63,922 nucleotides of DNA, taken from a virus (lineage: Duplodnaviria > Caudoviricetes). Both the position numbers and the translations under genes were made by a program. This document shows positions 23,207-39,645 of the stretch, piece after piece (within the stretch, counting starts at the first letter, position 1; each line of letters starts with the position of its first letter). Below the pieces are notes generated by a model that was not told the DNA's origin, searched no databases, and saw nothing but the letters and a program-made list of their open reading frames with translations. The stretch is from positions 1 through 63,922 of IMG/VR virus record IMGVR_UViG_3300035670_000198; one strand, written 5' to 3'.

Positions 23207-26200
23207 CGCACGTCCTTCATAGTCAACGTACCCCAATACGTCGTGCCGCCATCATAAGTGATAAATGTCCACAAGTCGCGAGCATTTGCAGCAGTTGTAG
23301 CAGGAGGAATTGCTCCACCAGCCCAATATACTGTATTCGCAAACGTTGGGAATCTACCACCAGTGCCATCATTGAGCAATAGTAGTGAGAACATTTGCGC
23401 AGTTCCAGAACTTGGAGCGTTCGTAAATGTAAACGTTGTATTGCCTGTCAATGTATGGCGGAAGTAGTTAGCGTTTGACAAGTCGACAGTATTCGCTGTT
23501 GAGGTTGATGTATTGACAACCATAAAGTCTTTACTTGACTTCAACGTTGCTGTCAAATTACCGCTCATCGTCACAGAATTGTTTGATACGTTTGCAACAA
23601 GAGTTGAAGAACCAACAGTGAATACATTTCGAGTTAGATTGAACGTTAGATTGGCTGATCCACCAGTGCTTCCATTATTGTTGAAAAACACTTGAGTGTT
23701 TGATCCACCAATTGGTCCAGTTGGTCCTTGCGGTCCAGTAACACCTTGCGGTCCTTGCGGACCAGTAACACCTTGTGGACCCTGAGGACCAGTTGATCCT
23801 GCTGGACCTTGAGGACCTGCAACGCCTTGAGGACCTTGAGGACCAGCAACACCTTGCGGTCCTTGTGGACCAGGGACATTAGAAACTCCACTTGGTCCTT
23901 GTGGACCTTGTGGTCCGAATACACCTTGAGGACCTTGTGGTCCTTGTGGTCCTTGTGGTCCTTGAGGACCAACGTCGCCCTTATCACCTGTCACAGCAAA
24001 TGTGATAACAACATTTGCATTATCCGCAAACTGAGTAGTTACACCAGAGTTGTATGCAATTGGAATGTCAAAGTGATCGTTATGATCAATGTGATTTGCG
24101 ATGATAGAGAAGAATACAAAGTTTGCACTATTGGCTTCTTCTGTGATTTTGATAGTCCCTTTGATTGAACTCGTTGAGTCGTCAATCGTTTGGATAAATG
24201 ATGCAATATTTGAATCGCTTCTATCGATCACAGAAATACTCATTGTATTTGCTAATGAGAAATTAGTGTTTTCGACAACCACATAGCCATTGGCAACATT
24301 TTCTACATCAGTATCAGTATCAAACTTGTAATAGAATGACGCGCCACCAAAGTTACCAGTCTCACCTTTTGGTCCTTGAGGACCCTGCGGACCTTGTGGA
24401 CCAACGACACCCTGAGGACCTTGCGGACCAGTTGCACCTGTTGGTCCTTGTGGACCCTCAACACCCTGTGGACCCTGTGGTCCTGTATTTCCTTGTGGAC
24501 CAGATGGACCTGTTGGACCAGAGTTTACTGCAACTTTGATTACAGCTGATGAGTTGGCAACATAATATGTTTTACCAGTTGATTCGTTATGAACAAAGCG
24601 ACCAATACCAATATCCGTCCAAATGTCTCTGCTACCACTAATAATCCATGAGCCATTGTTTAGCGTATACAAGTCACCATTTCTAATATCAAAAATATCA
24701 TTTGTATCAGAAGTGAAGCCCAACACGGTGAATGTTGAACTTGCTTGAGAATATACACTAAATCCGTATGGGCTCTCACCCTTGAACTTATCGAGAATTG
24801 GATTGCTGTCCAAATCTAGCGTTAGAGTTGTGGCAGCATCAAGAGTTGTGTTACCAAGTTGTGTTGTAACAAACGTAAATTCATTACCAGTACGAGTTGC
24901 TTGAATTGTTACACCGTCTGGATAACTTGACCAACCGCCAGTAAAGGTGACATTTGCAGAACCATCAACTAATTTTACTGCATCTGATCTGAGGTAGTTG
25001 TACCAAATTTCCCAGCCAGTGATTGTACCGCCAGTATCGCGCAAGGCAGACAATGTATACTCGCGTCCAGTGTCTGGATCAACATACCAACCAACAAGAA
25101 TACCGATTGTGTCATTGTCAGCATTAGTTGATGCAAGTTTTGCCGTCAACGTATAGTCTGAATATGATTCTGGTGAAACAAATCCAAGATAAGTTCCGCT
25201 ATTTGTGGTGCTAGTGATGACGCCAGTATTTGCATCAAATGACCATGCGCTCAATTCACCAGAATTCGCTGGTTGATTTTCAGTAGCGTCGTGAGAGAAT
25301 CTTGTCCAAGTATTGAAGATCGTTGCATAATCTGTCAAAGTATTTTGAGCAGCACTCAATTCACCATTTGTTTCAATGAAGTATCCTTTGACAAGAGTAT
25401 AATCATTTTCTCTTTCGTAAGTTGCCGTGTTCGCCAAGAAAGATACTTGACCCTCAAGACCAACTGGTGCAACATTAGCAAGTTGTTGACCGTCAAGCAA
25501 GTCAGCATCAAGAGTAGACAAATGACCATCATTGCCAGCATGCCATACAGTATTACGATTGATCATCACACCATTGGCGCTGACGACATCAAAGTTGATT
25601 CTGTCATCAGCATCATTTGTCATGGTGAACGTCATTTCTGTCGCTTCACCACCAAGTGGATTCAATAACTTGATTGTTGCAGTATCGCTGCCACCACCAA
25701 ATGCGTCATTAGGGAATCTAATACCACCATTTGCTCCTGAAGCAACATTCAAGCTGCTTACATTTGCGTTATGAGTGCTGAAGAGTCTTGCCGTTGAGTC
25801 AAATGTAAGATCAGTACATCCAACTGCCGTCATGCTGCTATTATAAATGATTTGTTTGTCAGCGCCAGCAACAGGACCTGTTGGACCTTGTGGACCCAAC
25901 TCACCAGTTGAGCCGATTGCGCCTTGAGGACCCTGAGGACCTTGAGGACCTTCAACTCCCTGCGGACCTTGTGGACCCTGTGGACCTTGCGGACCATCAA
26001 CACCCTGTGGTCCTTGAGGACCCTCTGGTCCTTGTGGTCCTTGTGGACCAAATAATCCTTGTGGACCTTGAGGTCCTTGTGGACCAAACACACCTTGCGG
26101 ACCTTGAGGACCAAACAAGCCTTGTGGACCTTGTGGACCTTCTGGACCCTGTGGACCTTGTGGACCCTCAGCGCCTTGTGGACCCTGAGGACCATCAACG

Positions 26201-28854
26201 CCTTGCGGACCTTGTGGACCAACACTACCCCTATCGCCAGTTCTGCCAAATGAAACTAGAATTGCTTGATCGTTTACAAATGAACTTGAAGAACCAGTGA
26301 TGTGCGTTACATCAATCTCATAGTATCCAGTTAGATCAGTGAGATCATTGATGTTATAAAGTTCAAATGTACCAGCATTTGTCTTATCAAAGATTTTCAA
26401 ATAACCTTTGATTGTACTTGTACTATCATCAAATGCTGTCAAGAAGGTTAGAATATTTGAACCATCAGCATCAACGTTGTCAATATAAACTTTGGTTGTA
26501 AGTGTTGGAACAACATTATTGAACTTGAGTTTACCAACACCAGGGTCAGTACTTGTAACTTCATCATTGAATTCATAAGCAAAACTGATTCCACCATATG
26601 CGCCTTGCACACCTGATGGACCTGATGGACCCATTGGTCCTTGAGGACCTTGTGGTCCACGTGCACCAATCGCACCTTGTGGACCCTGTGGACCTTGTGG
26701 ACCAACTTCACCAGTAACACCTTGCGGACCTTGTGGTCCAGTTTCGCCTTGTGCTCCCTGCGGACCTTGTGGACCCTGTGGACCCTGTGGACCTTGAGGA
26801 CCTTGTGGACCAAACACGCCTTGTGGACCTTGTGGACCAACAATTAGACCAGCATCAACCCATTGTACAAGATCATCGTTATAGACATAAAGATGTCCAA
26901 TGCTTGTTACAACATAAGCGTCAGCATCATTTGCTGAGCCAGGAAGATCAGTAACATCAATTACTGTACCAAGTACATTGATGCCACCACCAGGAACACC
27001 CTGTGGACCTTGCGGACCTTCTGGACCCTGTGGACCTTGTGGTCCGAATACACCTTGAGGACCTTGTGGTCCTTGTGGTCCAACTACACCTTGTGGTCCT
27101 TGCGGACCATCAACACCTTGCGGACCTTGCGGACCTTGTGGACCAATGAATGGACCAGCATCAACCCAAACAGCTGGATGCGGACAATCGTCCCAAACAT
27201 ATAGATGACCGTCAGCGATTACAATATATGCATCGCCAGCAGTTTGGTCAGTAATTGAATTGATTAGAATTTCATAAGTTGGTACAGTGCCAACAAGACG
27301 AATGCCAGCGCCAGGAATACCTTGAGCACCACTTGGTCCTTGTGGACCTTGCGGACCAATTGCACCTTGAGCGCCACTTGGTCCTTGTGGACCTTGTGGT
27401 CCTGTGAAACCACGATCACCTTTGACGCCTTGTGGACCTTGCGGACCTGTTGGTCCACGTGAACCTTGTGGACCACGACGACCTGTTGTAGCAGTAACTT
27501 CCCAAGTCATACCGTTGTAAATGAATTCAACAGTAACGCCTCGGAGATCAAGTCTTACAATTTGATCGCTACCTTCAATGGTATTATCTAATGATTGGAT
27601 GAAGAGATTATTTGCGCCCCAATCATCACCGTCAGTAACTTGAACATAGCCACCAAGAACTGGAGTGTTTGGTAGTGTGATTGTGAATGGACCATTGACT
27701 GTTGTGTTAGCAACAATACGATCGCCATCAACTGCTGTGTAATCCAATGAGTGAACTGACCAGTGTTGTAGCGCACCGCTTGCACCTTGTGGACCTGTTG
27801 GACCAGCAACACCTTGCGGACCACGTGGACCAGCAACACCTTGAATACCTGATGGACCTGTTGGTCCCTGTGGACCAGATGGACCAGAAGCACCAACTAA
27901 ACCTTGCGGACCAGTAGGACCCTGTGGACCAGCAAAACCTCGAGGACCAGATGGACCTTGTGGACCAATGTCACCTTGCGCACCTTGAGGACCAGCAACG
28001 CCAGATGGACCTTGCGGACCAGCAACACCACGTGGACCCGTTGCACCAGATGGACCAGCCTCACCTTGTTCACCTTGCGCGCCCGACGGACCAGATGGAC
28101 CAGTAGGACCAACAGCACCAGTTGCGCCAGATGGACCTTGTGGACCACGCGCACCGCTTGGACCAGATGGACCTTGTGGACCTTCATCACCAACAGCACC
28201 AGATGGACCAATAGGACCTTGAGGACCTGCAGCACCAACCAAACCACGTGGACCTGAAGGACCTGATGGTCCAGCAAAACCTTGAAGACCTTGTGCACCT
28301 GATGGACCTTCTGGACCCTGTGGACCAGCAACACCTTGAGGACCTGATGGACCTTGAGGACCAGCAACACCACGTGGACCGCTTACGCCTTGCGGACCTT
28401 GTGGACCAGCATCACCCTTTACGCCTTGTGGACCAGAAGGACCTGATGGTCCAGATGGACCTTGCGCGCCAGCAACACCTTGTGGACCGCGAGCGCCTGC
28501 AGGACCACTTGGACCCTGTGGACCAATCTCGCCCTGAGCACCTTGTGGACCAGATGGTCCTGTGGGACCGCGACTACCAACAGGACCAGATGGACCAGAT
28601 GGACCAGAAGCACCGCGAGGACCAGAAGGACCAGAGACACCTTGTGGTCCTTGAGGACCAGCAGCACCTGAAGGACCTTGTGGACCGCCTGACGGACCTG
28701 TAGGACCGAGTCCACCTTGAGGACCTGATGGACCTTGTGGTCCTTGAGGACCAGCAGGACCACCTGCGCCGCGACCAGTTGAAACTTTTACAACTGGTTT
28801 TTGAGTTGAAACTTTGATTGTCTGGCCAATAGCCGTGCTGACATTCGCTGACAT
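23203..28854 (-). CDS. Giant collagen-like fibre protein (1883 aa), multidomain
   Basis: Extensive Gly-Pro-X runs; gp9/10-like beta domain ([20 protein letters not shown]); [16 protein letters not shown] fibre motif; lectin-like domain; C-terminal adaptor domain. Confidence 0.9.
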
Positions 28855-29248: not shown

Positions 29249-30055
29249 TCAATCCCCTGTATATCTCTCCAATTTGAACTTTTTCTTGATCATATAATAC
29301 TTACGATACCAGTTCCCTTCGTAAAATTTCTTCGGCGATTTATGAGAATCTAATTGTTCAATAGTGCCTGGACCATAAGAAGCAGAAAAATCTTCAGTTG
29401 TTTTGATTGGGATAACTTGCAGCAATGGAGTTCCTGCTGGGATGGTAATATCTAATCTTCTTTTTGGGGAAAAGATCACATTTGCAGTCGTGAACTCTCT
29501 ATAATCTACAACTCCAGGATAGAGATATAGATCCTCAAGATATGGGCAGTGATAGAAAGCAGGAAGCAATAACGCAGAAACGTTTCTCTTTCCGTAGATT
29601 TTCCATGGACCTGGCATATTCCATGCAGTTGGTTTGATATCATCTTTGAATGTGAACAAACCATTTGTAACATCAGTAGCCATTGGAAATGGTTCTCTTA
29701 CTGGAAGTTCTGGTGGATGAATTTCCATTGGATTTGAGAATGGATGTGGTTTCGGTTTTGCTGCCTTATCGCCTGATGACGATCCATATCGAATCACAGT
29801 GCCTGCTTTATTTGATTTGATATGAATATCAATCCATGCTGTGATCAGATAACCCATGCGAGAGTAATCATGCATTCCAGGGCATCCTGGGAAATTATAA
29901 TTACCCTGTTCTTTTTCTTGAAACTCTTTGAAAAATGGTTTTACATCTTTCGCAAGAAGAATTGGGTAATGTGTATAGACCTGTCGACTCGAGTCAACAA
30001 ATTCTAGATCAGGAGTTTCTTTTGAAAAGAAATTGAATAACTTATTCATCTTCAT
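29249..30055 (-). CDS. DUF6065-like protein (paralog 2)
   Basis: GCPGMHDYSRMGYLI...PWKI...PGVVD...IPAGTPLLQVIPI. Confidence 0.7.
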   Translation of the reverse strand: MKMNKLFNFFSKETPDLEFVDSSRQVYTHYPILLAKDVKPFFKEFQEKEQGNYNFPGCPGMHDYSRMGYLITAWIDIHIKSNKAGTVIRYGSSSGDKAAKPKPHPFSNPMEIHPPELPVREPFPMATDVTNGLFTFKDDIKPTAWNMPGPWKIYGKRNVSALLLPAFYHCPYLEDLYLYPGVVDYREFTTANVIFSPKRRLDITIPAGTPLLQVIPIKTTEDFSASYGPGTIEQLDSHKSPKKFYEGNWYRKYYMIKKKFKLERYTGD

Positions 30056-30788
30056 GTTTTCTCTTTCTCAATTCCCAAGTATAATGATGAGTGCGTGTGT
30101 GCTGAGCCTTTTGAATCTTTTCAATGTGCTTCTTCTCAGCCATTGACATTGGACGAACTTTTGGTTTACGATTATTGAATGAACCACGCTTGACTGGAAT
30201 TGCCGTTACTAGTGGTGTTCCTGCAGGCAGACTTCCGTCAAAGTCAGGAACTAACCAAGCCGCAGGAAAATTCACTTCCTTTGGATATGCATCAGTATCA
30301 ACATATCCAGCAAGGCATCGGAAAGGTTGATCAAAATGATTCATTGGCGGGATAAACAAGGTTGACCAACCTGGCTTTGTTTTGATTACCCAACGATTGA
30401 TAAACTTGACAGGATTGCCATGCTTGAATCCCAGCGCAGCCTTACCACCAACCTGACCTGCGTCGTGGAACTCAGCAACCGTAAGTCCTGGAGGATTTAT
30501 AATCTCAATTTGTGTACAGTTGTGATTTGTTGCAACATGAAGATCGCCAGCAAGTGGAATTGTAAACCCAAGAGACATAGCGTCGAGCATCGGTAAACAC
30601 TTCTTTGCTGTCATAGTTGGATTGCCAAAAACATCTCGTTTACCAGGATCAAATGTTGGCGCAAGGTCTTTGAACCATTTCGGAAGATATTTTACAGCAG
30701 GGCGAGGTTCTGGAATTACACCATCGAAATCTGGATGACAATAAAATTCCATTACATCATTGCCCCAAAACTTGAGCAAATTTTTCAT
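30042..30788 (-). CDS. DUF6065-like protein (paralog 1)
   Basis: P.WFK...KKCLPMLDAMSLGFTIP...WVIKTKPGWSTLFIPPMNH...GYVDTD...AGTPLVTAIP. Confidence 0.78.
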   Translation of the reverse strand: MKNLLKFWGNDVMEFYCHPDFDGVIPEPRPAVKYLPKWFKDLAPTFDPGKRDVFGNPTMTAKKCLPMLDAMSLGFTIPLAGDLHVATNHNCTQIEIINPPGLTVAEFHDAGQVGGKAALGFKHGNPVKFINRWVIKTKPGWSTLFIPPMNHFDQPFRCLAGYVDTDAYPKEVNFPAAWLVPDFDGSLPAGTPLVTAIPVKRGSFNNRKPKVRPMSMAEKKHIEKIQKAQHTRTHHYTWELRKRKHEDE

Positions 30789-30789
30789 A

Positions 30790-31392
30790 TCAATGAGTCC
30801 TCTCGCCCATAACCCAGCATACTAACGATTTACGAACACCAGAGGTGACAGGCGCAACACGATGTGGCATAAATGAAGAGAAGAAAATAACTTCACCACG
30901 TTTTGGTTTTAGGACTAGTGGTTCGTTGACTCTGCCATGTGGAACTAATTGAAACTCACCACCGCCATAATCATCTGGATCAGTGAGCATGATACTAGCA
31001 CTAATTTTACGAATGTAATTGGTACTGCCAATGTCCATGTCCATGTGCCAATCATAATGTTGTTTTGTTCTGGCTTTATAGACGGTATACTGAAAATTAT
31101 CGAAACCGTCAATATTATACATGAAGTGGTCGTAATTTACTTGAGAAAGCAAACCACCAAATTTTTGAAAAATCCAGTCTGAGTTTTGATCGTGCATAAG
31201 CCACATGATATCACTATCGCGCGCTTTTTTATTCACGGATCCTGTGCTTGTGGTGCCACCGATCTGACCTCGTTGAAACTTTTGTAAGTCTTCAAGATCA
31301 ATAATCTTGTCGCATTCTTCGTCGGTGAATATTTGGTTTGTGATGCAATACTGATCTAGTTTTTTTGCATACCTTTGCACTTTGAATGGCAT
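30790..31392 (-). CDS. 2OG-Fe(II) oxygenase, prolyl-hydroxylase-like
   Basis: FTDEEC...FQYTVY...YDWHMD...RKISASIML...YGGGEF...MPHRVAPVTSGVRKSLVCW (HxD...H...RxS intact). Confidence 0.92.
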   Translation of the reverse strand: MPFKVQRYAKKLDQYCITNQIFTDEECDKIIDLEDLQKFQRGQIGGTTSTGSVNKKARDSDIMWLMHDQNSDWIFQKFGGLLSQVNYDHFMYNIDGFDNFQYTVYKARTKQHYDWHMDMDIGSTNYIRKISASIMLTDPDDYGGGEFQLVPHGRVNEPLVLKPKRGEVIFFSSFMPHRVAPVTSGVRKSLVCWVMGERTH

Positions 31393-31429: not shown

Positions 31430-31436
31430 TATTTAG
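31430..31436 (-). promoter_or_regulatory. Late promoter variant (CTAAATA) for the oxygenase/DUF6065 genes
   Basis: Overlaps the stop of the 884-aa gene; GGAG SD downstream. Confidence 0.6.
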
Positions 31437-34087
31437 TCGATCTTTACAACTATTTGACCGCCTGTAGGTACAACTACTGGGTAGTTGGCAGAGTCAGGAT
31501 ACACATATGTATCTACTGGTGTTGGTGGAACATATGGTGCTGGTTCTCCAGCATTGTATCCTGCAATATTTCCTGGAGCATTATAGTTTGCGCTTGCGCC
31601 AGCACCACCTGGGAAATAAACACCAAGAACATTTGTTGGGCTTCCTGCTGTACCAAGAATTGGTGGGTTATACGTTGCAGGATTGCCAGCATTATATGAT
31701 GCGGCTGTATTACCTGAATAAGTTGCTACGTTTCTTGGATTATAAGTTGCAGGATTACCAGCATTGTATGAAGCAATATTATTGCCAGTAAATGTTGCAG
31801 GTGAAGGTGGATTATAACTTGCTGGATTGCCAGCGTTGTAATTAGCAAGATTGTTGCCAGTATAAGTTGCAGGATTTCCAGCATTGTATGAAGCAGCGCT
31901 GCCAGCATTATAATTGGCAAGAGTGTTTCCTGAATAAGAAGCAATGCTTCCAGGATTGTAAGATGCGACATTTCCTGCGTTATATCCAGAAACATTGTTG
32001 CCAGTATAACTTGCAGCAGAGCCAGCATTATACACAGCAGACCCAGGATTATATGCTGCTATGTTTCTTGGATTATACGTCGCTGTTGTGCCAGCGTTGT
32101 AGTTAGCGTTGTTGCCAACATAACCAGAAATATTTGTTGGATTATATGATGCTGGTGATCCAGAATTATAATTTGCTGATCCAGGATTATAACCAGAAAC
32201 GTTTCTTGGATTATATGAAGCAACAGTTCCAGGATTATAGTTTGCACTATTGCCAGAATATCCAGAAACATTGTTGCCAGTATAAGAAGCAGGTGAACCT
32301 GTGTTGTAATTAGCAGAACCTGGATTATAATTTGCTACTGTCGGTGGATTGTATGAAGCAACAGTTCCAGGATTATAGTTAGCAGATCCAGGATTATAGT
32401 TTGCTACTGTTGGTGGGTTGTAACTTGCTGGAGTTCCAGCATTGTAATTCGCTGATCCTGGATTATAGCTGGCAACATTTCTTGGATTATAAGTTGCAAC
32501 TGTTCCAGCGTTATAGTTTGCTGTACCTGGATTGTAATTCGCAATAGTTCTTGGATTATAAGTTGCTACAGTACCAGCATTATAGTTCGCAGTTCCTGTG
32601 TTATAATTTGCCACTGTTGGTGGGTTATATGACGCTGGGTTTCCAGGATTATAATTTGCTACACCTGGATTGTATCCGCCAGTCGCGTTTCCAGGTGATC
32701 CTGGAATTGATGAGTAATAAATGTAGACATACAAATTGATTGCTTCGTGCGGACCTGCTGCTGGATTACCATATGCATCGGTTGGGGCTGGAGCTGGTCC
32801 TGATCCAGATTGCGGATAATATTGAAATCCAATTTGAACAGGATCTTCATAGAAGAAATAATCAAATCCAAAATCATGAACATAGAATGTTCCAAACCAG
32901 TTTGTTGCTGTCGGTGGATTATATACTTGAGTGTTGCTAGAATAGCCAGCAATGTTTCTTGTATTATAAGTTGCGGGATTTCCAGGAGTAAAGTTGGCGT
33001 TGTTACCAGAATATCCAGCAACGTTTCTTGGATTATAAGTCGCCGCCGTTCCAGGATTATAGTTTGCTGTGTTACCAGAATACCCAGCAACGTTTCTTGG
33101 ATTATATGTTGCTGCAGTGCCAGGATTGTAATTTGCAGTATTTCCTGAGTATCCTGCTACGTTGCGAGGATTATATGATGCTGGATTGCCTGGAGTGAAG
33201 TTGGCATTGTTACCAGAATATCCAGCAACGTTACGAGGATTATATGTTGCAGCGTTTCCTGGAGTAAAGTTGGCGTTGTTACCAGAATATCCAGAAACAT
33301 TTGTAGGATTATAACTTGCTGGAGAACCAGTATTGTAGTTAGCCGAGCCAGGATTATAACCAGAAACGTTTCGCGGATTATATGATGCTACATTGCCCGC
33401 ATTATAATTTGCACTATTCCCAGAATATCCAGCAATATTGTTGCCAGTATAAGATGCTGGAGAACCTGTGTTATATGTCGCGCTTCCCGCGTTATATCCT
33501 GCTACGTTTCTTGGATTGTAAGTAGCAGGAGTGCCAGCATTATAGTTGGCATTGTTGCCAGTAAATCCAGAAACGTTTGTCGGATTATATGATGCGATGT
33601 TACCAGTGTTATAACCAGCAACGTTGCGAGGATTGTAACTGGCAATATTATTGCCAGAATAAGACGCTGCGCTTCCTGAGTTATAATTTGCATTGTTGCC
33701 ACTATATGAGGCGACATTGTTGCCAGAATAGGAAGCAGGATTCCCAGAATTATAGTTGGCATTGTTGCCAGTATAAGATGCTGGGACTGGCGGATTGTAA
33801 CTTGCTGGGTTGCCAGCGTTATAGGTCGCAGCATTATTGCCAGAATAAGATGCCGTGGTTCCAGCGTTATATGTTGCAGGGCTACCTGAATTGTAGGTTG
33901 CTGCGCTGTTTCCTGTATATGTGGCTGGTGTTCCTGGAGTTGCGTTAGTACCTGTGCCTGCGCGTCCAGAGACTGAAGCATTGAATCGACCGTATGGGAT
34001 CGTTATGCTGGATGTATTATTGAAAGTGGTTGTGTTTCGAAATGCCGAACCGATCCAGCTTTTCAACAGGTCTGTGTGTATGGGCAT
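31433..34087 (-). CDS. Tyr/Asn/Gly/Pro 7-8-mer repeat protein (884 aa) with a central non-repeat domain
   Basis: N-cap IPYGR..VSGRAG; 44 repeat units, ~70-aa insert, 44 units; C-cap GVYFPGG...VPTGGQIVVKID. Confidence 0.9.
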   Translation of the reverse strand: MPIHTDLLKSWIGSAFRNTTTFNNTSSITIPYGRFNASVSGRAGTGTNATPGTPATYTGNSAATYNSGSPATYNAGTTASYSGNNAATYNAGNPASYNPPVPASYTGNNANYNSGNPASYSGNNVASYSGNNANYNSGSAASYSGNNIASYNPRNVAGYNTGNIASYNPTNVSGFTGNNANYNAGTPATYNPRNVAGYNAGSATYNTGSPASYTGNNIAGYSGNSANYNAGNVASYNPRNVSGYNPGSANYNTGSPASYNPTNVSGYSGNNANFTPGNAATYNPRNVAGYSGNNANFTPGNPASYNPRNVAGYSGNTANYNPGTAATYNPRNVAGYSGNTANYNPGTAATYNPRNVAGYSGNNANFTPGNPATYNTRNIAGYSSNTQVYNPPTATNWFGTFYVHDFGFDYFFYEDPVQIGFQYYPQSGSGPAPAPTDAYGNPAAGPHEAINLYVYIYYSSIPGSPGNATGGYNPGVANYNPGNPASYNPPTVANYNTGTANYNAGTVATYNPRTIANYNPGTANYNAGTVATYNPRNVASYNPGSANYNAGTPASYNPPTVANYNPGSANYNPGTVASYNPPTVANYNPGSANYNTGSPASYTGNNVSGYSGNSANYNPGTVASYNPRNVSGYNPGSANYNSGSPASYNPTNISGYVGNNANYNAGTTATYNPRNIAAYNPGSAVYNAGSAASYTGNNVSGYNAGNVASYNPGSIASYSGNTLANYNAGSAASYNAGNPATYTGNNLANYNAGNPASYNPPSPATFTGNNIASYNAGNPATYNPRNVATYSGNTAASYNAGNPATYNPPILGTAGSPTNVLGVYFPGGAGASANYNAPGNIAGYNAGEPAPYVPPTPVDTYVYPDSANYPVVVPTGGQIVVKID

Positions 34088-34133: not shown

Positions 34134-35102
34134 TCAATCGTATCGATCAGGAATTTCCCAGTCATTGACCACATCTGGAGGGAGAAGAATACTCCTCGAG
34201 ATGGCTCTATTTTCCAGTTTTCGATTGATATAATCGACGCCAGAATACTTACGATATTCTTCGAAGAACTCGTCGCTGAAACTATCCAAGAAATTGCGAA
34301 ATTCTTTTCTAGATTTTTCTCGATTTCTATTGAGTTGTTCGTGCGAGACAACCTGATTCACATCTTGTTTAGTGATATATCGGTGTGTATCTGTCAAGTG
34401 ATAGCAATGAATTCTTCTTGGAGCGCAAAGTTTATATCCAGCCGCAAATGAAGCCAGCGTCATATATTGTTCTTCGCCCTCAAAGAAAATGCGAGGATTC
34501 ATCCCAACGTTTCTCAACCAATCACTATGTGTGAAGAAGTTTCCAGCAAATAAGTGAATGGTTGGGTGTAGATGATCTTGTGTCGCTTCTCGAAACTCTC
34601 CGTGAGCGCCAAGAATATAATTCTCATGGAAAGACCAATATCCTGCTTTGACAGTAATATTGCCATGACGATCAAGGAATGGCGTTCCATCCTCTTGCAT
34701 TCTAAATGAACCACAATTCGCGTCAATGATGATTCGATCAGTTTGATGCTGTTGCATTCCAAGTTTGAAATCATTGATCAAATAGCGATCCCAATTCTTA
34801 TCAAAAAGCATATGAGAGTCTACTTGATAGTAGAACTCTTCATCATCGAGTTGAATCGAATTTAGATGTCTTGCCCAACCAACGCCATCTGAGAATTTGG
34901 CATCAATTCTTTTATATCGAACATTTTTATTTTGAGCAAGATCTGGATATTTGGCTTCTAGGCTATCAGCATAGTCAGTTTGTTCAAAGACGCCATAAGT
35001 TATTTTTGTCAGTTGAGATTGCATCTCCATCATATTGCGTAGAGTTTGGTGGAGAAGCGGATCTCTATATGAGACGATACTGACAAAAATTTTCATTAGC
35101 AA
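34134..35102 (-). CDS. GT60-family GlcNAc transferase ([Skp1]-hydroxyproline N-acetylglucosaminyltransferase-like)
   Basis: IFVSIVSYRD...GVFEQ...GVGWAR...EEFYYQVDSHMLFDKNWD...FAGNFF...FFEGEE...AGY...YH. Confidence 0.88.
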   Translation of the reverse strand: MLMKIFVSIVSYRDPLLHQTLRNMMEMQSQLTKITYGVFEQTDYADSLEAKYPDLAQNKNVRYKRIDAKFSDGVGWARHLNSIQLDDEEFYYQVDSHMLFDKNWDRYLINDFKLGMQQHQTDRIIIDANCGSFRMQEDGTPFLDRHGNITVKAGYWSFHENYILGAHGEFREATQDHLHPTIHLFAGNFFTHSDWLRNVGMNPRIFFEGEEQYMTLASFAAGYKLCAPRRIHCYHLTDTHRYITKQDVNQVVSHEQLNRNREKSRKEFRNFLDSFSDEFFEEYRKYSGVDYINRKLENRAISRSILLPPDVVNDWEIPDRYD

Positions 35103-35671
35103 CCCCTCTTACCCATTACCCATACGTTCAATGACTTTCTCGTTCCAGAAGTGATTGGTACGATTCTTGACGGCATCCATGGAGCATAAAATACTACGCT
35201 ACCAAGATTTGGTTTGATTGGCATGACTTCATTCGGATCGCCAGTATTCATGATCTCAATTTCACCCCCCAAATATTCTTCTGGGTCAGTAAGCATAATC
35301 GATGCGCAGATCTTTCGTTCCCAATTTAGAAACGCGAAGTCAACATCGTAATGCCAACCATATTCTTGATTCTTTTTATATTTGGCATATTGAAATGCAT
35401 CGAAGCCGTCGATATCATACATGAAGAAATCGATATTGATACGACCAATAAGTCCAGAAAACTTATCAAAAAGCCACTGAGTGTCTTGATTTGGCGGTAG
35501 GACTGCTAGATCTGCTTGATTCTTGCCATTTGTTTGTTCTTTAGAAAACATAAGTTTCTTTTCTAAAGAAGTTACTTTATCGACTTCTTCTTGCGTCAGA
35601 AAGTCTGAAACAACAGCAAATTTAGAGAGGATACGATTGTATTTGACAACTTGAGGCATAACGAACTCCAC
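35096..35671 (-). CDS. 2OG-Fe(II) oxygenase paralog lacking the distal His
   Basis: IDGFDAFQY...YGWHYD...RKICASIMLTDP...MPSRIVPITSGTRKSL; clear paralog of 30790..31392. Confidence 0.88.
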   Translation of the reverse strand: MEFVMPQVVKYNRILSKFAVVSDFLTQEEVDKVTSLEKKLMFSKEQTNGKNQADLAVLPPNQDTQWLFDKFSGLIGRINIDFFMYDIDGFDAFQYAKYKKNQEYGWHYDVDFAFLNWERKICASIMLTDPEEYLGGEIEIMNTGDPNEVMPIKPNLGSVVFYAPWMPSRIVPITSGTRKSLNVWVMGKRGC

Positions 35672-35695: not shown

Positions 35696-35703
35696 TATTT
35701 ATT
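35696..35703 (-). promoter_or_regulatory. Late promoter variant (AATAAATA)
   Basis: Overlaps the stop of the 538-aa gene; GGAG SD downstream. Confidence 0.55.
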
Positions 35704-37315
35704 CGATTCTTACAACTATTTGTCCACCTGATGGAACTTCAATTGCGTGATTTCGATAATCAATTTCTTGGTTCTCAAAGTAATAACTAATCTCTTGCTC
35801 ATTGACATAAACGCCAGGAGCGCAAACACCACCACCTGGGAAGTAAACACCAAACGCATATCCAGGTTCTCCAGGAGTTCCTGGGATTGGGAAGTTATAA
35901 GTGCTTGCACTTCCTGGATTATACGTTGCTACAAAGTTTCCAGTGTAACTTGCAATATTGTTGCCAGTATATGTTGCTGGATTACCAGAGTTATAACCAG
36001 AAACAAAGTTAGAAGTGTAAGACGCTGGGTTGCCAATATTATATGATGGAGGTGGTGCTGGATTGTATCCACTAATTGTGTTGCCAGTATATGTTGCTGG
36101 GCTACCAGAATTGTAGTTGGCATTGTTGCCAGTATATCCACTGATCGTATTTCCAGAGAAACCGCCCACAAACGTTTCATTATATGTTGCTGGACTTCCA
36201 GCGTTATAATTGGCATTATTTCCAGTATATGCACCAATTACATTTCCAGAGAAACCACCAACAAACGTTGGATTGTATGTGGCTGGATTACCTTCATTGT
36301 ATGTTGCTGGATTGCCGCCAGGGGCAAATCCAGCAGAGAAGTTTCCTGTGTAATTTCCAGCATTACCTGTATTATAATTTACATTGTTGCCTGAATAGTT
36401 ACCAACAGTAGAAGGATTATAGTTTGCTATGTTACCAATATAATCCGCAACGTTTCCTGGATTATAGTTGGCAGGTGGGCTTGCTGATGGCGTACACTCG
36501 TAATTGGTAACTGTATATTCAATAATTTCTGGAGTTCCAGGAGGTGGACCATAAAAACTTGTTGGAGTTGGGCAGCTTGGATCGCTTCCGCTTCCATAAT
36601 AAGTGCCGCTACCAATTGGGCTACCATCAAACGCAAATACGATTGAATAATTTGTAGTAGAGTTCCAAGTCACACCACCAGCAGCAGGATTATACCCTGC
36701 AACACTTGTTGGGTTATAACCTGAAATGTTTGTTGGGTTGTATGTAGCAACATTTCTTGGGTTGTATGATGCAATGTTTCCAGGAACATAGAAAGCATTT
36801 CCTGGAGTAAATTCTAGAGGATTATACCCAGTGATTGTTGGTTCATTATATGTCGCAGGATTACCGCCAGAAAGAACTGGATTGTATGTTGCATTGTTAC
36901 CAATGTAACCATCTAACGTGCCAGCATTATATTCAGCAGTTGCAGTTCCAGAAGTTCCAGGCTCATTACTTATTACACTGTATGTAATATAAATGTTTTG
37001 ACCAATAGCCTCATGCGGACCTGCTGCTGGATTGGCGTAAACATTTACTGGATCAGGCAGCGTGGGCGTTGTCAAAAATTGAGGATAGTATTGAAATCCA
37101 ATTTGTACTGGATCATCGAAGAAAAACTCAAGCTGTCCATTGTCATTACTAAAAAATGATGCGCTCCAATACACCAATCCACCGCCTGATGGTGGATTAT
37201 ATACCTGCACGTTTCCAGTATACGAAGCAACACCTTCGTTATAACCTGCAAGATTTCCTCCAGTACTTGGATTATATGTCGCAGGATTTCCTGGTTCGTA
37301 GATAGCAGTAGACAT
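35699..37315 (-). CDS. Tyr/Asn/Gly/Pro repeat protein, C-terminal half of a split paralog
   Basis: Starts MSTAIYEPG; two non-repeat inserts; C-cap GVYFPGG...VPSGGQIVVRIE homologous to the 884-aa C-cap; no N-cap. Confidence 0.88.
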   Translation of the reverse strand: MSTAIYEPGNPATYNPSTGGNLAGYNEGVASYTGNVQVYNPPSGGGLVYWSASFFSNDNGQLEFFFDDPVQIGFQYYPQFLTTPTLPDPVNVYANPAAGPHEAIGQNIYITYSVISNEPGTSGTATAEYNAGTLDGYIGNNATYNPVLSGGNPATYNEPTITGYNPLEFTPGNAFYVPGNIASYNPRNVATYNPTNISGYNPTSVAGYNPAAGGVTWNSTTNYSIVFAFDGSPIGSGTYYGSGSDPSCPTPTSFYGPPPGTPEIIEYTVTNYECTPSASPPANYNPGNVADYIGNIANYNPSTVGNYSGNNVNYNTGNAGNYTGNFSAGFAPGGNPATYNEGNPATYNPTFVGGFSGNVIGAYTGNNANYNAGSPATYNETFVGGFSGNTISGYTGNNANYNSGSPATYTGNTISGYNPAPPPSYNIGNPASYTSNFVSGYNSGNPATYTGNNIASYTGNFVATYNPGSASTYNFPIPGTPGEPGYAFGVYFPGGGVCAPGVYVNEQEISYYFENQEIDYRNHAIEVPSGGQIVVRIE

Positions 37316-39645
37316 TAGTAAGTTAGAACCCCATTAGCATAGAAATTTGGGCTAGACTTATACTTATTATTGAATGTATAGACCGTATATGGATAGTTGA
37401 TTGAAACAATCGCATTGATTCGAACTGCGTTGCCATTCTTATCAACAAAACTATCGCCCACTTGTACCTTCGCCACATCACCCAAAGATCTATATCCTTG
37501 CATTGTCAAGTTTGGATTCATAGAAGCATAACCCTTTCCAATGACGAAGAATGGGTGATCATCAGACGCTCTGACAGAAATGCTATTTTCTAGAATGTAT
37601 TCAAACATCACTCTGTTCACGCGAGTGATAATCTCTGAAACTTCGTTTGTTTCATGCTCGCCTGTATCTGGGTTATACGACAAGATTTGATCACCAACTT
37701 GAATTGTTTCAATTGCCTTGGTTGAACCATCAGCCATTGAGATGAGCGTGTCACCAGCAAAGCAGCAACCACCGCCACCAATTGGTGTTGGCTCATTATA
37801 ACCACCAATTGTTGGTTCGTTATACGTCGCCACTGTGCCTTCGTTGTATGTTGCAGCAGTGCCTTCGTTGTATAGTGCAGTTCCTGCGTTATAAACCTCA
37901 GTGCTTCCACTTGGATTATATCCTGAAATAGTATTTCCAGTGTAACTTCCTACTGTGCCTGGATTATAATTTGCGATATTTCCAGCAACATAATTTGCAA
38001 TTGAGCCTTCGTTATAAATTCCTGTGGCGTTATTGCTGATGTAATTAGCAATGGTTCCCTCATTATAAATTTGTGCACCAGGAGTATTGAATGTTGCGGT
38101 AAAGTTTCCAGTATAAGTTGCAGGATTACCTGTATTATAATCCGCAATTCCTGGATTATACACAGCATTACCGCTATTGTATCCAGCAACACTAGTTGGA
38201 TTATATGTTGCTGGACTTCCAGTATTATAATCACCAACCCCTGTATTGTACAACGCATTACCGCTATTGTAGCCACCAATATTGGTTGGAGTGAATGACG
38301 CTGGATTGCCAGTATTATAGTTTGGATCAGCAGATCCAGGTGGATTATATCCAGAAATTGTAGCAAAGGAGCAGTCAGTGAATGGAGTGCCTGGAGTAAA
38401 TACTGCTGAATTGCCAACAAAGCTGTTTATATTACCAGCATTATAGATAGCAGTGCCTTGATTATAATTGGCATTATTATCTGCATAAGTAATTGCATTA
38501 CCAGCAGTAAATCCTGAAGGGTTGCCAGTATTATAATTCGCATTGTTTCCAGTATATCCACCAATGATATTGCCACCATAAGTGGCTGGTGTTCCAACAT
38601 TATATGCGCTTGCTGTTCCTGGATTATATCCAGAAATATTTGTTGCATTATAACTGCTTGGATTGCCAGTATTATAGTTTGCACTGTTGCCAGTATATGT
38701 TGCAGGATTTCCTGGAACTGCTGGAGAGCAATCGTAGTAGATGATATAAGAATAAACTTGTGCTCCACCACCAACCACGAATCCTGGGAAATTTGGAAAA
38801 TTGCTTGGTGTTACAACAGTCGTTGAGTCTCTCAGAGGACATCCAACAGAAGTCCCCGTACCCTCAAAGGCGAGTTGCTCATAATAGAAATAATCTTCGT
38901 CGAAAATTGTTTCAATAATAACACCATACCAGTTTACAGTGGCTGGATTATATGTGAGTGGACTACCTGCGTTATATCCTGAAATTGTATTACCAGTAAA
39001 CCCAACAGGATTGCCAGTATTATAATTCGCATTATTGCCTGAATAAGCAGAGATACTATTTGAACCGTTGACATATGTTGCAGGATTTCCTGGAGTATAC
39101 GTCGCAGTTCCAGTATTATATCCATTGATATTTCTTACATTATAACCACCAGGTGTAGCGGCATTATAAGTTGTGCCGACACCAACGTTATAACCTGCAA
39201 CATTTGTTGCGTTATATCCAGAAATGTTGCCAGCATTATATTGAGCGCCACCTGCGCTTCCTGAGTTATATCCTGTTATGACTGCTGGGTTGAATCCAGT
39301 CCCACAAGGATTATAGATTGCGTTGTTACCACCACTAGCTGGAATTTCAGTATTTCCAGTATATGACGCAGGATTACCAAAATTATAATTAGCACTGTTA
39401 CCAGTATATGAGGCAGTGAATCCTGGATTATATGTTGCAGCAACGCCAGAGTTATATGAGGCTGCGCTGTTGCCAGTGTAAGTTGCAATGTTTCCAGGAA
39501 CTGGACAGTTACCTGATCCACCACGACCTGAAACGTAAAGACGATTTCGACCATATGGAACAAACATATTTCCATATGTGTTGAATACAGTGGAACCGCG
39601 TGTAGCGGTCCATGTTTTTTCTAATTCATCAATACGCTTTGGCAT
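37315..39645 (-). CDS. Tyr/Asn/Gly/Pro repeat protein, N-terminal half of a split paralog, with C-terminal Hint domain
   Basis: N-cap VPYGR..VSGRGG homologous to the 884-aa N-cap; ends in a Hint domain; no C-cap. Confidence 0.9.
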   Translation of the reverse strand: MPKRIDELEKTWTATRGSTVFNTYGNMFVPYGRNRLYVSGRGGSGNCPVPGNIATYTGNSAASYNSGVAATYNPGFTASYTGNSANYNFGNPASYTGNTEIPASGGNNAIYNPCGTGFNPAVITGYNSGSAGGAQYNAGNISGYNATNVAGYNVGVGTTYNAATPGGYNVRNINGYNTGTATYTPGNPATYVNGSNSISAYSGNNANYNTGNPVGFTGNTISGYNAGSPLTYNPATVNWYGVIIETIFDEDYFYYEQLAFEGTGTSVGCPLRDSTTVVTPSNFPNFPGFVVGGGAQVYSYIIYYDCSPAVPGNPATYTGNSANYNTGNPSSYNATNISGYNPGTASAYNVGTPATYGGNIIGGYTGNNANYNTGNPSGFTAGNAITYADNNANYNQGTAIYNAGNINSFVGNSAVFTPGTPFTDCSFATISGYNPPGSADPNYNTGNPASFTPTNIGGYNSGNALYNTGVGDYNTGSPATYNPTSVAGYNSGNAVYNPGIADYNTGNPATYTGNFTATFNTPGAQIYNEGTIANYISNNATGIYNEGSIANYVAGNIANYNPGTVGSYTGNTISGYNPSGSTEVYNAGTALYNEGTAATYNEGTVATYNEPTIGGYNEPTPIGGGGCCFAGDTLISMADGSTKAIETIQVGDQILSYNPDTGEHETNEVSEIITRVNRVMFEYILENSISVRASDDHPFFVIGKGYASMNPNLTMQGYRSLGDVAKVQVGDSFVDKNGNAVRINAIVSINYPYTVYTFNNKYKSSPNFYANGVLTY
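37318..37764 (-). other. Hint (Hedgehog/intein) domain, 149 aa, no endonuclease, no terminal His-Asn
   Basis: GGGGC|CFAGDTLISMADGSTKAIETIQVGD...SDDHPF...VGD...VYTF...NFYANGVLTY*. Confidence 0.9.

What the first reader, a model, noticed from the sequence alone, without database searches (positions are those of the whole stretch)
35699..39645. The same code predicts two separate genes zip into a branched, cloverleaf-like heterodimer
SEEN: the 776-aa protein has only the N-cap and the 538-aa protein only the C-cap of the 884-aa paralog. Applying the G/non-G rule by hand gives three inter-gene stems. The first 6 units of 776 match the 6 units preceding the final TYNFPIPG of 538 (6/6). The 776 run after GSADP (NYNTG...SYTGN) matches the 538 run after its second insert (16/16, with irregular FNTPG opposite FAPGG excluded). 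The last 5 units before the Hint domain match the 538 run FTPG...GYNPT (5/5). Intra-gene side stems close insert 1 in 776 (about 12-13 of 14) and the first insert of 538. Junctions coincide with Pro/Gly-rich irregular units. INFERENCE: a tree-shaped fibre with three tip domains, assembled from two polypeptides by sequence-complementary zipping.
Basis: partly seen in the sequence, partly recalled or inferred. Interest (0 to 1): 0.93.

Follow-up and report, generated by a model that had tools for sequence, protein, structure and literature searches.

The report
Split fold-back phage fibre with coded arms
Two neighbouring phage genes seem to encode the two halves of a folded-back fibre protein whose repeat arms carry mirror-image glycine/non-glycine patterns, so the two products probably zip together in register, which would be an undescribed way to build a branched fibre.

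Summary
The side stems are weaker, 12/15 and 3/5.

In the window alone the signal is moderate. The 17-unit run has P about 0.007-0.04. Free folding of the strings gives z -3.4, but only -0.7 to -2.3 in four related gene pairs.

The support comes from elsewhere:
- Six single-chain paralogs are near-perfect mirror complements (z -8 to -10). Each N-arm fits its own C-arm best.
- The paired inter-gene segments have equal unit numbers in the window and L009/L010 lineages (23/23, 19/19) and 18/17 in the third, and stay 94-100% complementary.
- Cysteines occur in partner units or caps only in the split forms.
- 159-173-residue relatives contain little more than the two caps.

Structure prediction adds little: arms pLDDT 38, and cap-cap complex score 0.45 against 0.02 for the best control, which the tool rates as weak.

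My reading, at about 60%, is a two-chain, nicked version of a fold-back fibre. It has one long side branch, and a self-cleaving Hint domain sits at the nick. No Pfam, PHROG, PDB or literature match covers the arms or caps. The physical fold is unknown.

The parts
39493..39645 (-). 776-aa protein, N-cap (residues 1-51), with Cys47
   Evidence: Aligns with the N-terminus of the 884-aa paralog and of 17 relatives (A4). A Cys in the GGSGNC motif is present in 12 of 12 rows for split N-cap proteins and in 0 of 6 single-chain paralogs.
39352..39492 (-). 776: stem 1 strand, units 1-6 (residues 52-98), pattern nGGnGn
   Evidence: 6/6 complementary to units at residues 421-468 of 538. The same six-unit pair occurs in L009, L010, L011, L024 and L027.
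38941..39351 (-). 776: outgoing strand of the side branch (residues 99-235), starting with the Cys114 unit
   Evidence: 12/15 units are complementary to the returning strand when counted from the insert. By my hand count of that register from the units, Cys114 and Cys425 both lie in the 15th unit from the insert. Both are present in 12 of 12 776-like rows.
38710..38940 (-). 776: insert 1 (residues 236-312), a small non-repeat domain with Cys269 and Cys306
   Evidence: Break in the unit series. The Cys pair is conserved.
38338..38709 (-). 776: returning strand of the side branch (residues 313-436), ending with the Cys425 unit
   Evidence: The constrained fold recovers this hairpin.
37933..38337 (-). 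776: stem 2 strand, 17 units (residues 437-571)
   Evidence: 17/17 contiguous complement of residues 282-412 of 538. Recovered by both folding programs.
37789..37932 (-). 776: one unpaired unit plus the stem 3 strand of 5 units (residues 572-619)
   Evidence: 5/5 complement of residues 168-203 of 538.
37318..37788 (-). 776: Gly run followed by a C-terminal Hint (intein-like) domain, residues 620-776; the protein ends at the last Hint residue
   Evidence: Pfam: AXH 42.1 bits (cut-off 33); Hint 25.4 (cut-off 29.7); PT-HINT and Hom_end_hint weak. The best solved relative is a bacterial intein-like domain, 2lwy, E 1.2e-7. The stop overlaps the next start as TAATG.
37190..37315 (-). 538-aa protein: N-terminal arm of 5 units (residues 1-42)
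   Evidence: Only 3/5 complementary to the 5 units after insert A. L024/L027 have 3 units before insert A and 2 regular units plus one assumed degenerate unit after it.
36944..37189 (-). 538: insert A (residues 43-124), homologous to the tip domain of the 884-aa paralog
   Evidence: The stretch of 538 that holds this insert (residues 7-211) matches 884 at 52% identity over window 32411-32989.
36815..36943 (-). 538: 5 units after insert A (residues 125-167)
36683..36814 (-). 538: stem 3 strand (residues 168-203) plus one unit next to insert B (204-211)
   Evidence: The unit beside the insert is the single mismatch in the 22/23 duplex.
36473..36682 (-). 538: insert B (residues 212-281), with Cys248 and Cys274; a bulge on the main duplex
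   Evidence: The units on both sides pair with consecutive units of 776.
36080..36472 (-). 538: stem 2 strand, 17 units (residues 282-412)
35912..36079 (-). 538: spacer unit plus the stem 1 strand of 6 units (residues 413-468)
35702..35911 (-). 538: last unit and C-cap (residues 469-538), with Cys498
   Evidence: Aligns with the C-terminus of 884 and 18 relatives (A5). A Cys in the VC[AS]PG motif is present in 17 of 17 rows for split C-cap proteins and in 0 of 6 single-chain paralogs.
31433..34087 (-). 884-aa single-chain paralog: N-cap, 44-unit arm, tip domain, 44-unit arm, C-cap. This is the reference for the rule.
   Evidence: 42 of the 43 facing unit pairs are complementary. Fold z is -9.9 and 0 of 300 shuffles reach it. 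The contiguous run of 37 starts at the tip.

Best explanation
The 776-aa and 538-aa proteins are the two chains of a nicked version of a fold-back fibre family of a T4-like phage.

In the single-chain form (884 aa), the chain leaves a basal domain and runs out as an arm of 7-8-residue units. It forms a small tip domain, returns antiparallel along the first arm, and completes the basal domain with its C-terminus. Each rung holds one unit ending in Gly and one unit that does not.

In the split form:
- Six rungs follow.
- 776 makes its own 15-rung side branch, capped by insert 1.
- 776 then zips for 22 of 23 rungs against 538. Insert B of 538 bulges from this duplex.
- 538 ends in a short hairpin capped by insert A.
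- Cysteines in the two caps, and in some lineages in facing arm units, would staple the chains.
- The Hint domain sits exactly at the nick, after a Gly run. It most likely cuts itself off through a thioester at its first Cys.

What is shown: the unit patterns, their covariation, the cysteine distribution, the domain matches and the gene order.

What is inferred: physical pairing, a 1:1 closed heterodimer, the disulfides, Hint cleavage, the steric meaning of Gly against non-Gly, and a role as a virion fibre (taken from the neighbouring baseplate and fibre genes).
For: 1. Single-chain paralogs. In six proteins the N- and C-arms are mirror complements. Contiguous runs are 37, 35, 32, 32, 29 and 35 units, against 15-24 when the N-arm of one protein is set against the C-arm of another. 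The exception is the near-identical L009/L010 pair, at 32. Wrong-orientation controls give 12-18. Folding was done for five of the six (L009_820 was not folded) and gives z -8.0 to -9.9, with 0 of 300 shuffles reaching each. Local breaks in the 3-unit period are mirrored, and 3-unit indels near the tip are matched in both arms. DNA palindromes are not the cause: there are only 3 short inverted repeats of 17-34 nt.

2. Two-gene sets. The comparison is anchored at the junction and ungapped. In the two lineages where the 776-like protein has Hint (window, L009/L010) the segment ends at Hint. Cognate or same-lineage pairs give 22/23, 18/19, 18/19, 15/16 and 16/16. Pairs between lineages give 11-13 of 17-19. 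P from shuffling the partner is 2e-5 to 5e-4. Segment lengths are 23/23, 19/19, 19/19 and 18/17.

3. A three-gene relative (L011) shows a 13/13 run between its second and third proteins, starting next to the stem 1 landmark.

4. Cysteines (counts are rows of that table). A cap Cys is present in 12 of 12 rows for split N-cap proteins, 17 of 17 rows for split C-cap proteins and 0 of 6 single-chain paralogs. Some rows repeat one protein: L028 is the L024 contig, and P0002 is letter for letter the 758-aa protein of L009 and L010. Arm cysteines occur as one per partner in L024/L027 and in L011. By my hand pairing of the units, both cases have the same relative geometry in the G/n register.

5. Caps. 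Relatives of 159-173 aa consist of the two caps plus a few units. AlphaFold2 of one of them gives pLDDT 84-95 for both caps and pTM 0.61.

6. Cap-plus-stem-1 complex (ESMFold2): ipSAE 0.45, 0.05 and 0.50, median 0.45. Best of 3 controls 0.02. Partner pLDDT at least 40; the runs agree in at least 32% of contacts. The tool's verdict is 'weak support'. Its mark was reached by 58 of 80 solved complexes and 2 of 110 mismatched pairs, but scores of 0.60 or under were seen in only 7 of those 80.

7. Gene order. The two genes are adjacent with a 1-nt overlap in the window and in 4 other contigs.
Against: - Free folding of the G/n strings beats shuffles clearly only in the window (z -3.4, 1 of 500 shuffles). 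For L009, L010, L027 and L024, z is -2.25, -1.74, -1.17 and -0.66, with 8, 13, 38 and 64 of 300 shuffles reaching the score.
- With fold-backs restricted to inserts, 0, 20, 12, 2 and 10 of 120 shuffles reach the observed score.
- The free fold of the window pair recovers stems 2 and 3 but replaces stem 1 and the side branch with another pairing.
- An unanchored run/score matrix does not favour cognate pairs. For example, L009_758 against the window's 538 gives 17, against 15 for its own partner.
- I chose the landmarks of the anchored test after seeing the pattern. One 15-residue spacing in L024/L027 was counted as a degenerate unit.
- The lineages share ancestry, so independent events are few: one 4-unit indel and one further length change.
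- The hairpin around insert A obeys the rule at only 3/5.
- Distant relatives (P0029, and P0030 whose two arms are direct repeats) do not obey the G/non-G rule.
- AlphaFold2 of the 884-aa protein gave pLDDT 37.6, with a 23-residue strand periodicity that looks more like a solenoid than a hairpin.
- There is no experimental datum of any kind.
Confidence: 0.6

Rival explanations
1. The arms do pair antiparallel, but not as a closed 1:1 heterodimer. As in most phage fibres, the unit is a higher oligomer, for example a trimer of hairpins. An arm may then lie against the complementary arm of a neighbouring copy.
For: Mirror complementarity cannot tell pairing within a chain from pairing between copies. 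Phage fibres are usually trimers, and the T4 gp37 tip is a six-stranded fold-back needle made of three chains (recalled, not looked up).
Against: Relatives of 159-173 aa, with both caps confidently modelled in one chain, favour closure within one chain. The cap cysteines occur only in split forms, which fits a defined 776-538 contact.
Confidence: 0.15
2. 776 and 538 are separate fibres or fibre segments. The apparent stems are what periodic, compositionally biased G/n strings give once junction units may be skipped.
For: In 4 of 5 gene pairs, shuffled strings fold about as well. The unanchored matrix is not specific. The 17-unit run in the window has P of only 0.007-0.04.
Against: This does not explain several observations. 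The paired segments have equal lengths in the window and L009/L010 lineages (18 against 17 units in the third), with 94-100% complementarity, against 58-76% between lineages. Cysteines are paired. The mirror symmetry of the single-chain paralogs has z -8 to -10. Each protein carries only one of the two caps.
Confidence: 0.1
3. Each arm folds on its own into a beta-solenoid rod with three or four units per coil. Two rods of equal length lie side by side. The Gly/non-Gly pattern reflects rod-to-rod packing or coil geometry, not rung-by-rung zipping.
For: 884 has a 3-unit (23-residue) super-period, and stem 2 has a 4-unit period. The low-confidence AlphaFold2 model shows strands every 23 residues.
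Against: Every unit obeys the complementarity, not only one in three. Phase slips in one arm are mirrored at the same distance from the tip in the other. A finer class rule also holds: 8-residue G units face xGN units 81 times, and 7-residue G units face NPx units 75 times, against 31 cross cases.
Confidence: 0.1
4. The Hint domain does not merely cut itself off. Its thioester is attacked by the N-terminal residue or amine of 538, which the model places beside it. The two chains would then be ligated into one branched-fold polypeptide.
For: By the unit book-keeping, the last unit of 776 pairs with the unit that follows the N-terminal hairpin of 538, so the two chain ends meet. All five Hint-bearing pairs have the partner gene starting at the stop. 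Most partners begin Met-Ser. Middle pieces in three-piece sets also end in Hint (P0005-P0009 and P0028).
Against: The L024/L027 partners begin Met-Ala. L011 has no Hint but keeps the split. No C-terminal Asn or C-intein is present. No fused protein longer than 1358 aa was found, which the tool itself calls weak evidence.
Confidence: 0.1

Closest known systems
Receptor-binding tip (needle) of the T4 long tail fibre protein gp37 (recalled, not looked up here)
   Same: It is a phage fibre in which the chain runs to the tip and folds back. Outgoing and returning strands lie antiparallel, and the distal domain is encoded in the middle of the sequence.
   Different: There is no sequence or Pfam relation. 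gp37 is one gene. I know of no unit-by-unit Gly/non-Gly complementarity, branch or Hint domain in it.
Antigen I/II adhesins of streptococci (A3VP1 stalk)
   Same: Two repeat regions flanking a central domain intertwine into a long fibrillar stalk (passage read in PMC3707005). That the repeat numbers on the two sides match is recalled.
   Different: That stalk is an alpha-helix wound with a polyproline II helix. Here both arms are Tyr/Asn/Gly-rich octapeptides. It is a single gene and is not a phage protein.
SMC/Rad50-type fold-back proteins (recalled)
   Same: N- and C-terminal segments jointly form one head domain. Two antiparallel arms of matched length, with mirrored interruptions, carry a tip domain.
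   Different: Those arms are coiled coils, and the proteins are ATPases acting on DNA. There is no homology.
Bacterial intein-like (BIL) and Hedgehog-type Hint domains
   Same: The C-terminal 150 residues of 776 start with Cys after a Gly run, carry the conserved Asp-His-Pro block, and end in an ...ANGVL... block. The best solved relative is a BIL domain, 2lwy, E 1.2e-7.
   Different: The domain is the very end of the protein and has no terminal Asn, so only cleavage or transfer at its N-terminal side is possible. I found no report of this placement at the end of a fibre repeat arm next to the partner gene.
Self-cleaving C-terminal chaperone domains of tailspikes and fibres (peptidase S74 type; recalled)
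   Same: A C-terminal module of a phage fibre protein that removes itself after assembly.
   Different: The fold and chemistry differ (a Ser-Lys dyad there, a Cys thioester here). There is no Pfam match to that family.

Membership tests
Hint superfamily (intein / Hedgehog / BIL) | Nucleophilic Cys, Ser or Thr as the first residue of the domain | tested here: met
   A Gly run followed by Cys-Cys-Phe at residues 623-629. C627 and C628 are invariant in 10 of 10 aligned proteins.
Hint superfamily (intein / Hedgehog / BIL) | Conserved His of the second block (that the motif is Thr-x-x-His is recalled) | tested here: met
   D695, D696, H697 and P698 are invariant in alignment A2. They align with the Asp-His-Pro-Phe of the BIL domain 2lwy.
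Hint superfamily (intein / Hedgehog / BIL) | Significant profile or sequence match | tested here: inconclusive
   Pfam Hint scores 25.4 bits, below its cut-off of 29.7. PT-HINT, Hom_end_hint and Intein_splicing are also below cut-off. AXH scores 42.1, above its cut-off of 33. PDB: BIL domain E 1.2e-7 and Hint-containing chains at 1.6e-5.
Splicing intein or split intein | C-terminal Asn (or Gln/Asp) followed by a Cys, Ser or Thr extein residue in the same chain, or a C-intein at the start of the partner | tested here: not met
   The domain ends ...GVLTY followed by a stop. 538 starts directly with a repeat unit, with no intein block.
Fold-back fibre (gp37-needle-like architecture) | Outgoing and returning halves of the chain lie antiparallel, with the tip encoded mid-sequence | tested here: inconclusive
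   This is indicated by mirror complementarity and covariation and by minimal cap-only relatives. No usable 3-D model of the arms was obtained.
Fold-back fibre (gp37-needle-like architecture) | Homology to gp37 or another solved fibre | tested here: not met
   No PDB sequence match for the 884-aa protein at E <= 1. No Pfam or PHROG family for 538 or 884. The cap model has no fold match (best E 0.64 in PDB, 0.12 in BFVD).
Phage tail fibre / virion fibre | Presence in the virion, attached to the baseplate or tail | not testable with these tools
   Context only. The genes lie between gp8-like, baseplate-wedge, VrlC-like and tail-fibre genes on one side and a collagen-repeat protein on the other.

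The most novel reading that the evidence does not exclude
The octapeptide arms carry a rung-by-rung pairing code: Gly-ending units face non-Gly units, and a finer four-class rule also holds. This code acts for a protein fibre as base pairing does for RNA. It would let these phages build nested, branched fibres from one, two or three polypeptides that are nicked at junctions. The Hint domain, or in some phages a poly-Pro/poly-Gly tail, placed at each nick would use its thioester to join, or to check, the neighbouring chain end that the fold brings beside it.
Probability: 0.2. Interest if true: 0.95.

Novelty: new variant of a known kind. Interest (0 to 1): 0.8.

Why it matters
If the pairing is physical, this is a fibrous protein whose register is written in a simple sequence code and can be read from it. 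It tolerates being cut into separate genes and allows side branches. That would give a new design principle for fibres and for modular receptor-binding tips of phages.

It would also be a rare case where contacts between proteins can be predicted by covariation of repeat units, much as RNA helices are. In addition, it places a Hint domain in a new role at the junction of two fibre chains.

The family is rare: 81 proteins at E <= 0.001 among 1.84 billion representatives. It has no Pfam, PHROG or PDB counterpart for arms or caps.

Tried and rejected
- DNA and protein searches of the phage collection with the region and with 776 found nothing. Low-complexity masking and exclusion of the window's own record may both play a part.
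- AlphaFold2 of the 884-aa paralog with a 4-row alignment gave pLDDT 37.6 and was unusable.
The long stems were not tested, because the full pair exceeds the size limit. The result was 'weak support'.
- The search for fused forms longer than 1358 aa returned none at E <= 0.001 among 7998 scored candidates. The tool calls this weak evidence.
- The unanchored cognate/non-cognate matrix of the two-gene sets was not informative.
- DNA-level inverted repeats as a cause of the mirror pattern were rejected.
- Split intein was rejected: the Hint domain is complete and there is no C-intein.
- A pure-periodicity explanation for the 884 family was rejected, because high-order Markov nulls give P <= 0.004 and the irregularities are mirrored. 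That script stopped with an error on its fourth protein. The remaining proteins were handled.
- The ESM Atlas holds 538 but has no model and no usable hit.
- Fold searches of the cap model in PDB and BFVD gave no significant match. Weak leads to phage 'glycine-rich domain' proteins and an S-PM2 virion protein had E 0.12-0.6.
- Literature searches listed no paper on this family or on Hint domains at fibre ends. Only the listings were seen. Supplements are closed.

Full report
WHAT IS THERE

The window is a 63.9-kb fragment of a virus record. It carries T4-type baseplate genes: gp8-like, baseplate wedge, VrlC-like proteins, and a 402-aa tail-fibre protein. Directly downstream on the minus strand lie, in order:
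- the 776-aa gene (37315-39645);
- the 538-aa gene (35699-37315; stop and start overlap as TAATG);
- a 2OG-Fe(II) oxygenase;
- a GlcNAc-transferase (PF11397);
- the 884-aa paralog (31433-34087);
- a second oxygenase;
- two paralogous proteins of unknown function;
- a 1883-aa collagen-repeat protein.

All three repeat proteins are built of 7-8-residue units centred on Tyr or Phe.
- 884 has an N-terminal cap, a 44-unit arm, a non-repeat tip domain, a 44-unit arm and a C-terminal cap.
- 776 has the N-cap (58% identical to that of 884), one insert and a C-terminal Hint domain.
- 538 has no N-cap, two inserts and the C-cap (48% identical).

The rule was not spelled out in the finding, so I reconstructed it. 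A unit is class G if the residue three positions after the aromatic is Gly, and class n otherwise. In antiparallel order, G faces n.

- 6/6 for stem 1;
- 16/16 for stem 2, where the two irregular units are also complementary, giving 17 contiguous pairs;
- 5/5 for stem 3.

The side stem around the insert of 776 is 12/15. The one around the first insert of 538 is only 3/5.

Stems 2 and 3 are consecutive on 776. On 538 they are separated only by insert B and one mismatched unit. They therefore form one duplex of 22/23 rungs with a bulged domain.

The unit book-keeping closes:
- 776: 6 + 16 + 16 + 23 = 61 units.
- 538: 5 + 5 + 23 + 1 + 6 + 1 = 41 units.

IS THE WINDOW PAIR BEYOND CHANCE?

Moderately.
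- The 17-unit run compares with 11, 11 and 8 in the parallel or identity controls. It has P = 0.007 under shuffling and 0.009-0.037 under Markov chains of order 1-4.
G units were mapped to G, non-G units to C and inserts to unpairable loops, and the strings were folded with ViennaRNA. The window pair gives -93.3 against -78.7 +- 4.3 (z -3.4, 1 of 500 shuffles). Reversing either chain gives -75 to -77.
- This free fold recovers stems 2 and 3 exactly. It replaces stem 1 and the side branch with another pairing.
It scores 28.5 against 19.6 +- 2.9, with 0 of 120 shuffles reaching it.
- For the four related gene pairs the same tests are weak. Free folding gives z -2.25, -1.74, -1.17 and -0.66. In the constrained test 20, 12, 2 and 10 of 120 shuffles reach the score.

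On the binary code alone, then, random strings often do about as well.

THE SINGLE-CHAIN PARALOGS SHOW THAT THE RULE IS REAL

Six full-length proteins were compared: the window's 884 plus five from related viral contigs.
- The C-arm is the reverse complement of the N-arm, starting at the tip. Contiguous runs are 37, 35, 32, 32, 29 and 35 units.
- The N-arm of one protein against the C-arm of another gives 15-24, except for the near-identical L009/L010 pair.
- Wrong-orientation controls give 12-18. Markov nulls of order 3-5, which keep the 3-unit period, give P <= 0.004 for the three proteins tested.
- Folding was done for five of the six (L009_820 was not folded). It gives z of -8.0 to -9.9, with 0 of 300 shuffles reaching each. 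In 884, 42 of the 43 facing pairs are complementary.
- The places where the 3-unit period slips (nn, GGG/nnn) differ between proteins. In each protein they are mirrored at the same distance from the tip. Three-unit length differences near the tip occur in both arms.
- A finer rule also appears. Eight-residue G units face units ending Gly-Asn (81 rungs). Seven-residue G units face Asn-Pro-x units (75 rungs). The crossed combinations occur on 31 rungs. These counts are not independent across homologs.
- DNA palindromes do not explain this: only three short inverted repeats are present.

COVARIATION BETWEEN THE TWO GENES

The gene pair recurs with the same 1-nt overlap in four other contigs that fall into two further lineages. 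I compared two segments:
- on the 776-like protein, the segment from its junction to the last unit before the Gly run (followed by Hint in the window and L009/L010; the motif scan did not mark a Hint in L024/L027, whose proteins carry only the Cys-Cys-Phe motif there);
- on the partner, the segment from the base of its N-terminal hairpin to the spacer before stem 1.

These have 23/23, 19/19, 19/19 and 18/17 units. Anchored and ungapped, same-lineage pairs are complementary at 22/23, 18/19, 18/19, 15/16 and 16/16. Pairs between lineages give 11-13 of 17-19. Shuffling the partner gives P of 2e-5 to 5e-4. A 4-unit GGGn block present in the window's 776 but absent in L009/L010 is matched by a 4-unit nnnG block in 538.

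Caveats:
- I chose the landmarks after seeing the pattern.
- One long spacing in L024/L027 was counted as a degenerate unit.
- The number of independent events is small.
- An unanchored matrix is not specific.

In a three-gene relative (L011), the second and third proteins show a 13/13 run that starts next to the stem 1 landmark. By eye it extends over three further 7-residue Gly-ending units that lack the aromatic anchor.

CYSTEINES

The six single-chain paralogs have no cysteine in caps or arms. In contrast:
- All 12 rows for split N-cap proteins have one Cys just before the first unit.
- All 17 rows for split C-cap proteins have one Cys in the cap. (Some rows repeat one protein: L028 is the L024 contig, and P0002 is letter for letter the 758-aa protein of L009 and L010.)
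- All 12 776-like rows also have Cys114 and Cys425. By my hand count of the G/n register of the side branch (units), both fall in the 15th unit from the insert, at the base of the branch.
- L024/L027 carry one arm Cys in each partner, and so do the second and third proteins of L011. In both cases, by my hand pairing of the units, the Cys-bearing unit pairs with the unit just before the partner's Cys-bearing unit, and the Cys is at position 2 of its unit.

Disulfides are inferred, not shown.

THE CAPS

The representative search (81 proteins at E <= 0.001, 14 at <= 1e-10, in 1.84 billion) includes proteins of 159-173 aa that contain little more than the two caps and a few units.

AlphaFold2 of one of them (P0034, 15-row alignment) gives pLDDT 84-95 for residues 11-50 and 100-159, below 50 for the units, and pTM 0.61. 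I take this to mean that the caps form one beta domain, but the tool gives no contact list. The model has no significant fold match.

For 776 residues 1-100 plus 538 residues 405-538, ESMFold2 gave ipSAE 0.45, 0.05 and 0.50 (median 0.45), against 0.02 for the best of three controls. Partner pLDDT was at least 40, and the runs agreed in at least 32% of contacts. The tool's verdict is weak support. Its mark was reached by 58 of 80 solved complexes and 2 of 110 mismatches, but scores of 0.60 or under came from only 7 of the 80.

AlphaFold2 of the whole 884-aa protein failed, with pLDDT 37.6.

THE HINT DOMAIN

Residues 627-776 of 776 begin Cys-Cys-Phe after a Gly run. They keep the Asp-Asp-His-Pro block and end at the stop with an ...ANGVLTY block.
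- Pfam's Hint models score below their cut-offs, while AXH passes.
- The best solved relative is a bacterial intein-like domain, E 1.2e-7.
- There is no terminal Asn and nothing follows the domain, so splicing in cis is excluded. Cleavage or transfer at the Gly-Cys bond is the expected chemistry; this is established for Hedgehog and BIL domains, and I state it from recall.
- In the model the domain sits at the nick, next to the N-terminus of 538.
- Other pieces without an N-cap also end in Hint (P0005-P0009, P0028).
- In L011 the pieces end instead in poly-Pro, poly-Gly and a 7-residue tail.
- No fused form longer than 1358 aa was found.

COMPARISON AND NOVELTY

The arms and caps match no Pfam or PHROG family, no PDB sequence and no Atlas cluster. 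Four literature searches listed nothing on this family (listings only).

The architecture resembles fold-back proteins:
- the T4 gp37 needle and SMC/Rad50 (both recalled);
- the antigen I/II stalk (passage in PMC3707005).

What is new is the octapeptide arm with rung-wise Gly/non-Gly complementarity, the side branch, the split into two or three genes, and the Hint domain at the nick.

The rule is not universal in the wider family. P0029 and P0030 do not obey it.

VERDICT

The zipper between the two gene products is the best-supported reading, at about 0.6. It rests on covariation rather than on the window's strings alone. The 'cloverleaf' should be redrawn as a main duplex with one long branch, one bulged domain and one short, weakly supported terminal hairpin. 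The physical fold, the oligomeric state and the role of Hint remain open.

Noticed in passing
L011:8001-11635 (viral contig): Here the same system is cut into three genes of 642, 265 and 299 aa. The first two have no Hint domain and end in long poly-Pro, a run of 12-13 Gly and a conserved 7-residue acidic tail. The third begins with a basic 25-residue segment and a Gly run.
   Followed up: partly
L014:6398-7453, L016:6434-7453, L013:703-1722: In other related phages, a 339-351-aa protein without octapeptide arms also ends in the same kind of Hint domain (65% identical). It lies directly after a 581-720-aa fibre-like protein. A terminal Hint therefore seems to be a recurrent feature of these fibre loci.
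   Followed up: no
window 30790-31392, 34134-35102, 35096-35671 and 23203-28854 (all minus strand): Two 2OG-Fe(II) oxygenases (PF13640) and a GlcNAc-transferase (PF11397) are interleaved with the repeat genes. A 1883-aa collagen-repeat protein lies nearby. I recall PF11397 as the family that modifies hydroxyproline on Skp1. Proline hydroxylation and glycosylation of the Asn-Pro units or of the collagen repeats is possible.
   Followed up: no
window 29249-30055 and 30042-30788 (minus strand): Two adjacent paralogous proteins (phrog_7084; one matches DUF6065) are conserved downstream of the 884-like gene in all five related viral contigs whose held stretch reaches that far (L009, L010, L011, L027, L029). 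Function unknown.
   Followed up: no
P0033, P0034, P0076 (159-173 aa); P0029, P0030, P0087, P0099: The cap pair is the conserved core of a wider, rare family. Its arms use quite different repeat units, for example an 18-residue Asn-Tyr/Pro-rich unit. In P0030 the two arms are direct repeats of one another rather than mirror complements.
   Followed up: partly
window 37950-38420, 38427-38774, 35929-36237, 32659-33090 and others: Long open frames in other frames and on the opposite strand lie inside the repeat genes. They have repetitive Leu/Ile/Gln-rich translations. They look like by-products of the repeat composition rather than genes.
   Followed up: no
884-like proteins; window 31433-34087: Beyond Gly/non-Gly there is a four-class regularity. 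Eight-residue Gly-ending units face units ending Gly-Asn. Seven-residue Gly-ending units face Asn-Pro-x units. Each rung therefore holds 15 or 16 residues.
   Followed up: partly
L012:9092-10195: In one metagenome contig, the gene after the 779-aa Hint-bearing protein starts with a Gly- and Pro-rich segment instead of a repeat unit. The contig ends before its C-terminus.
   Followed up: no
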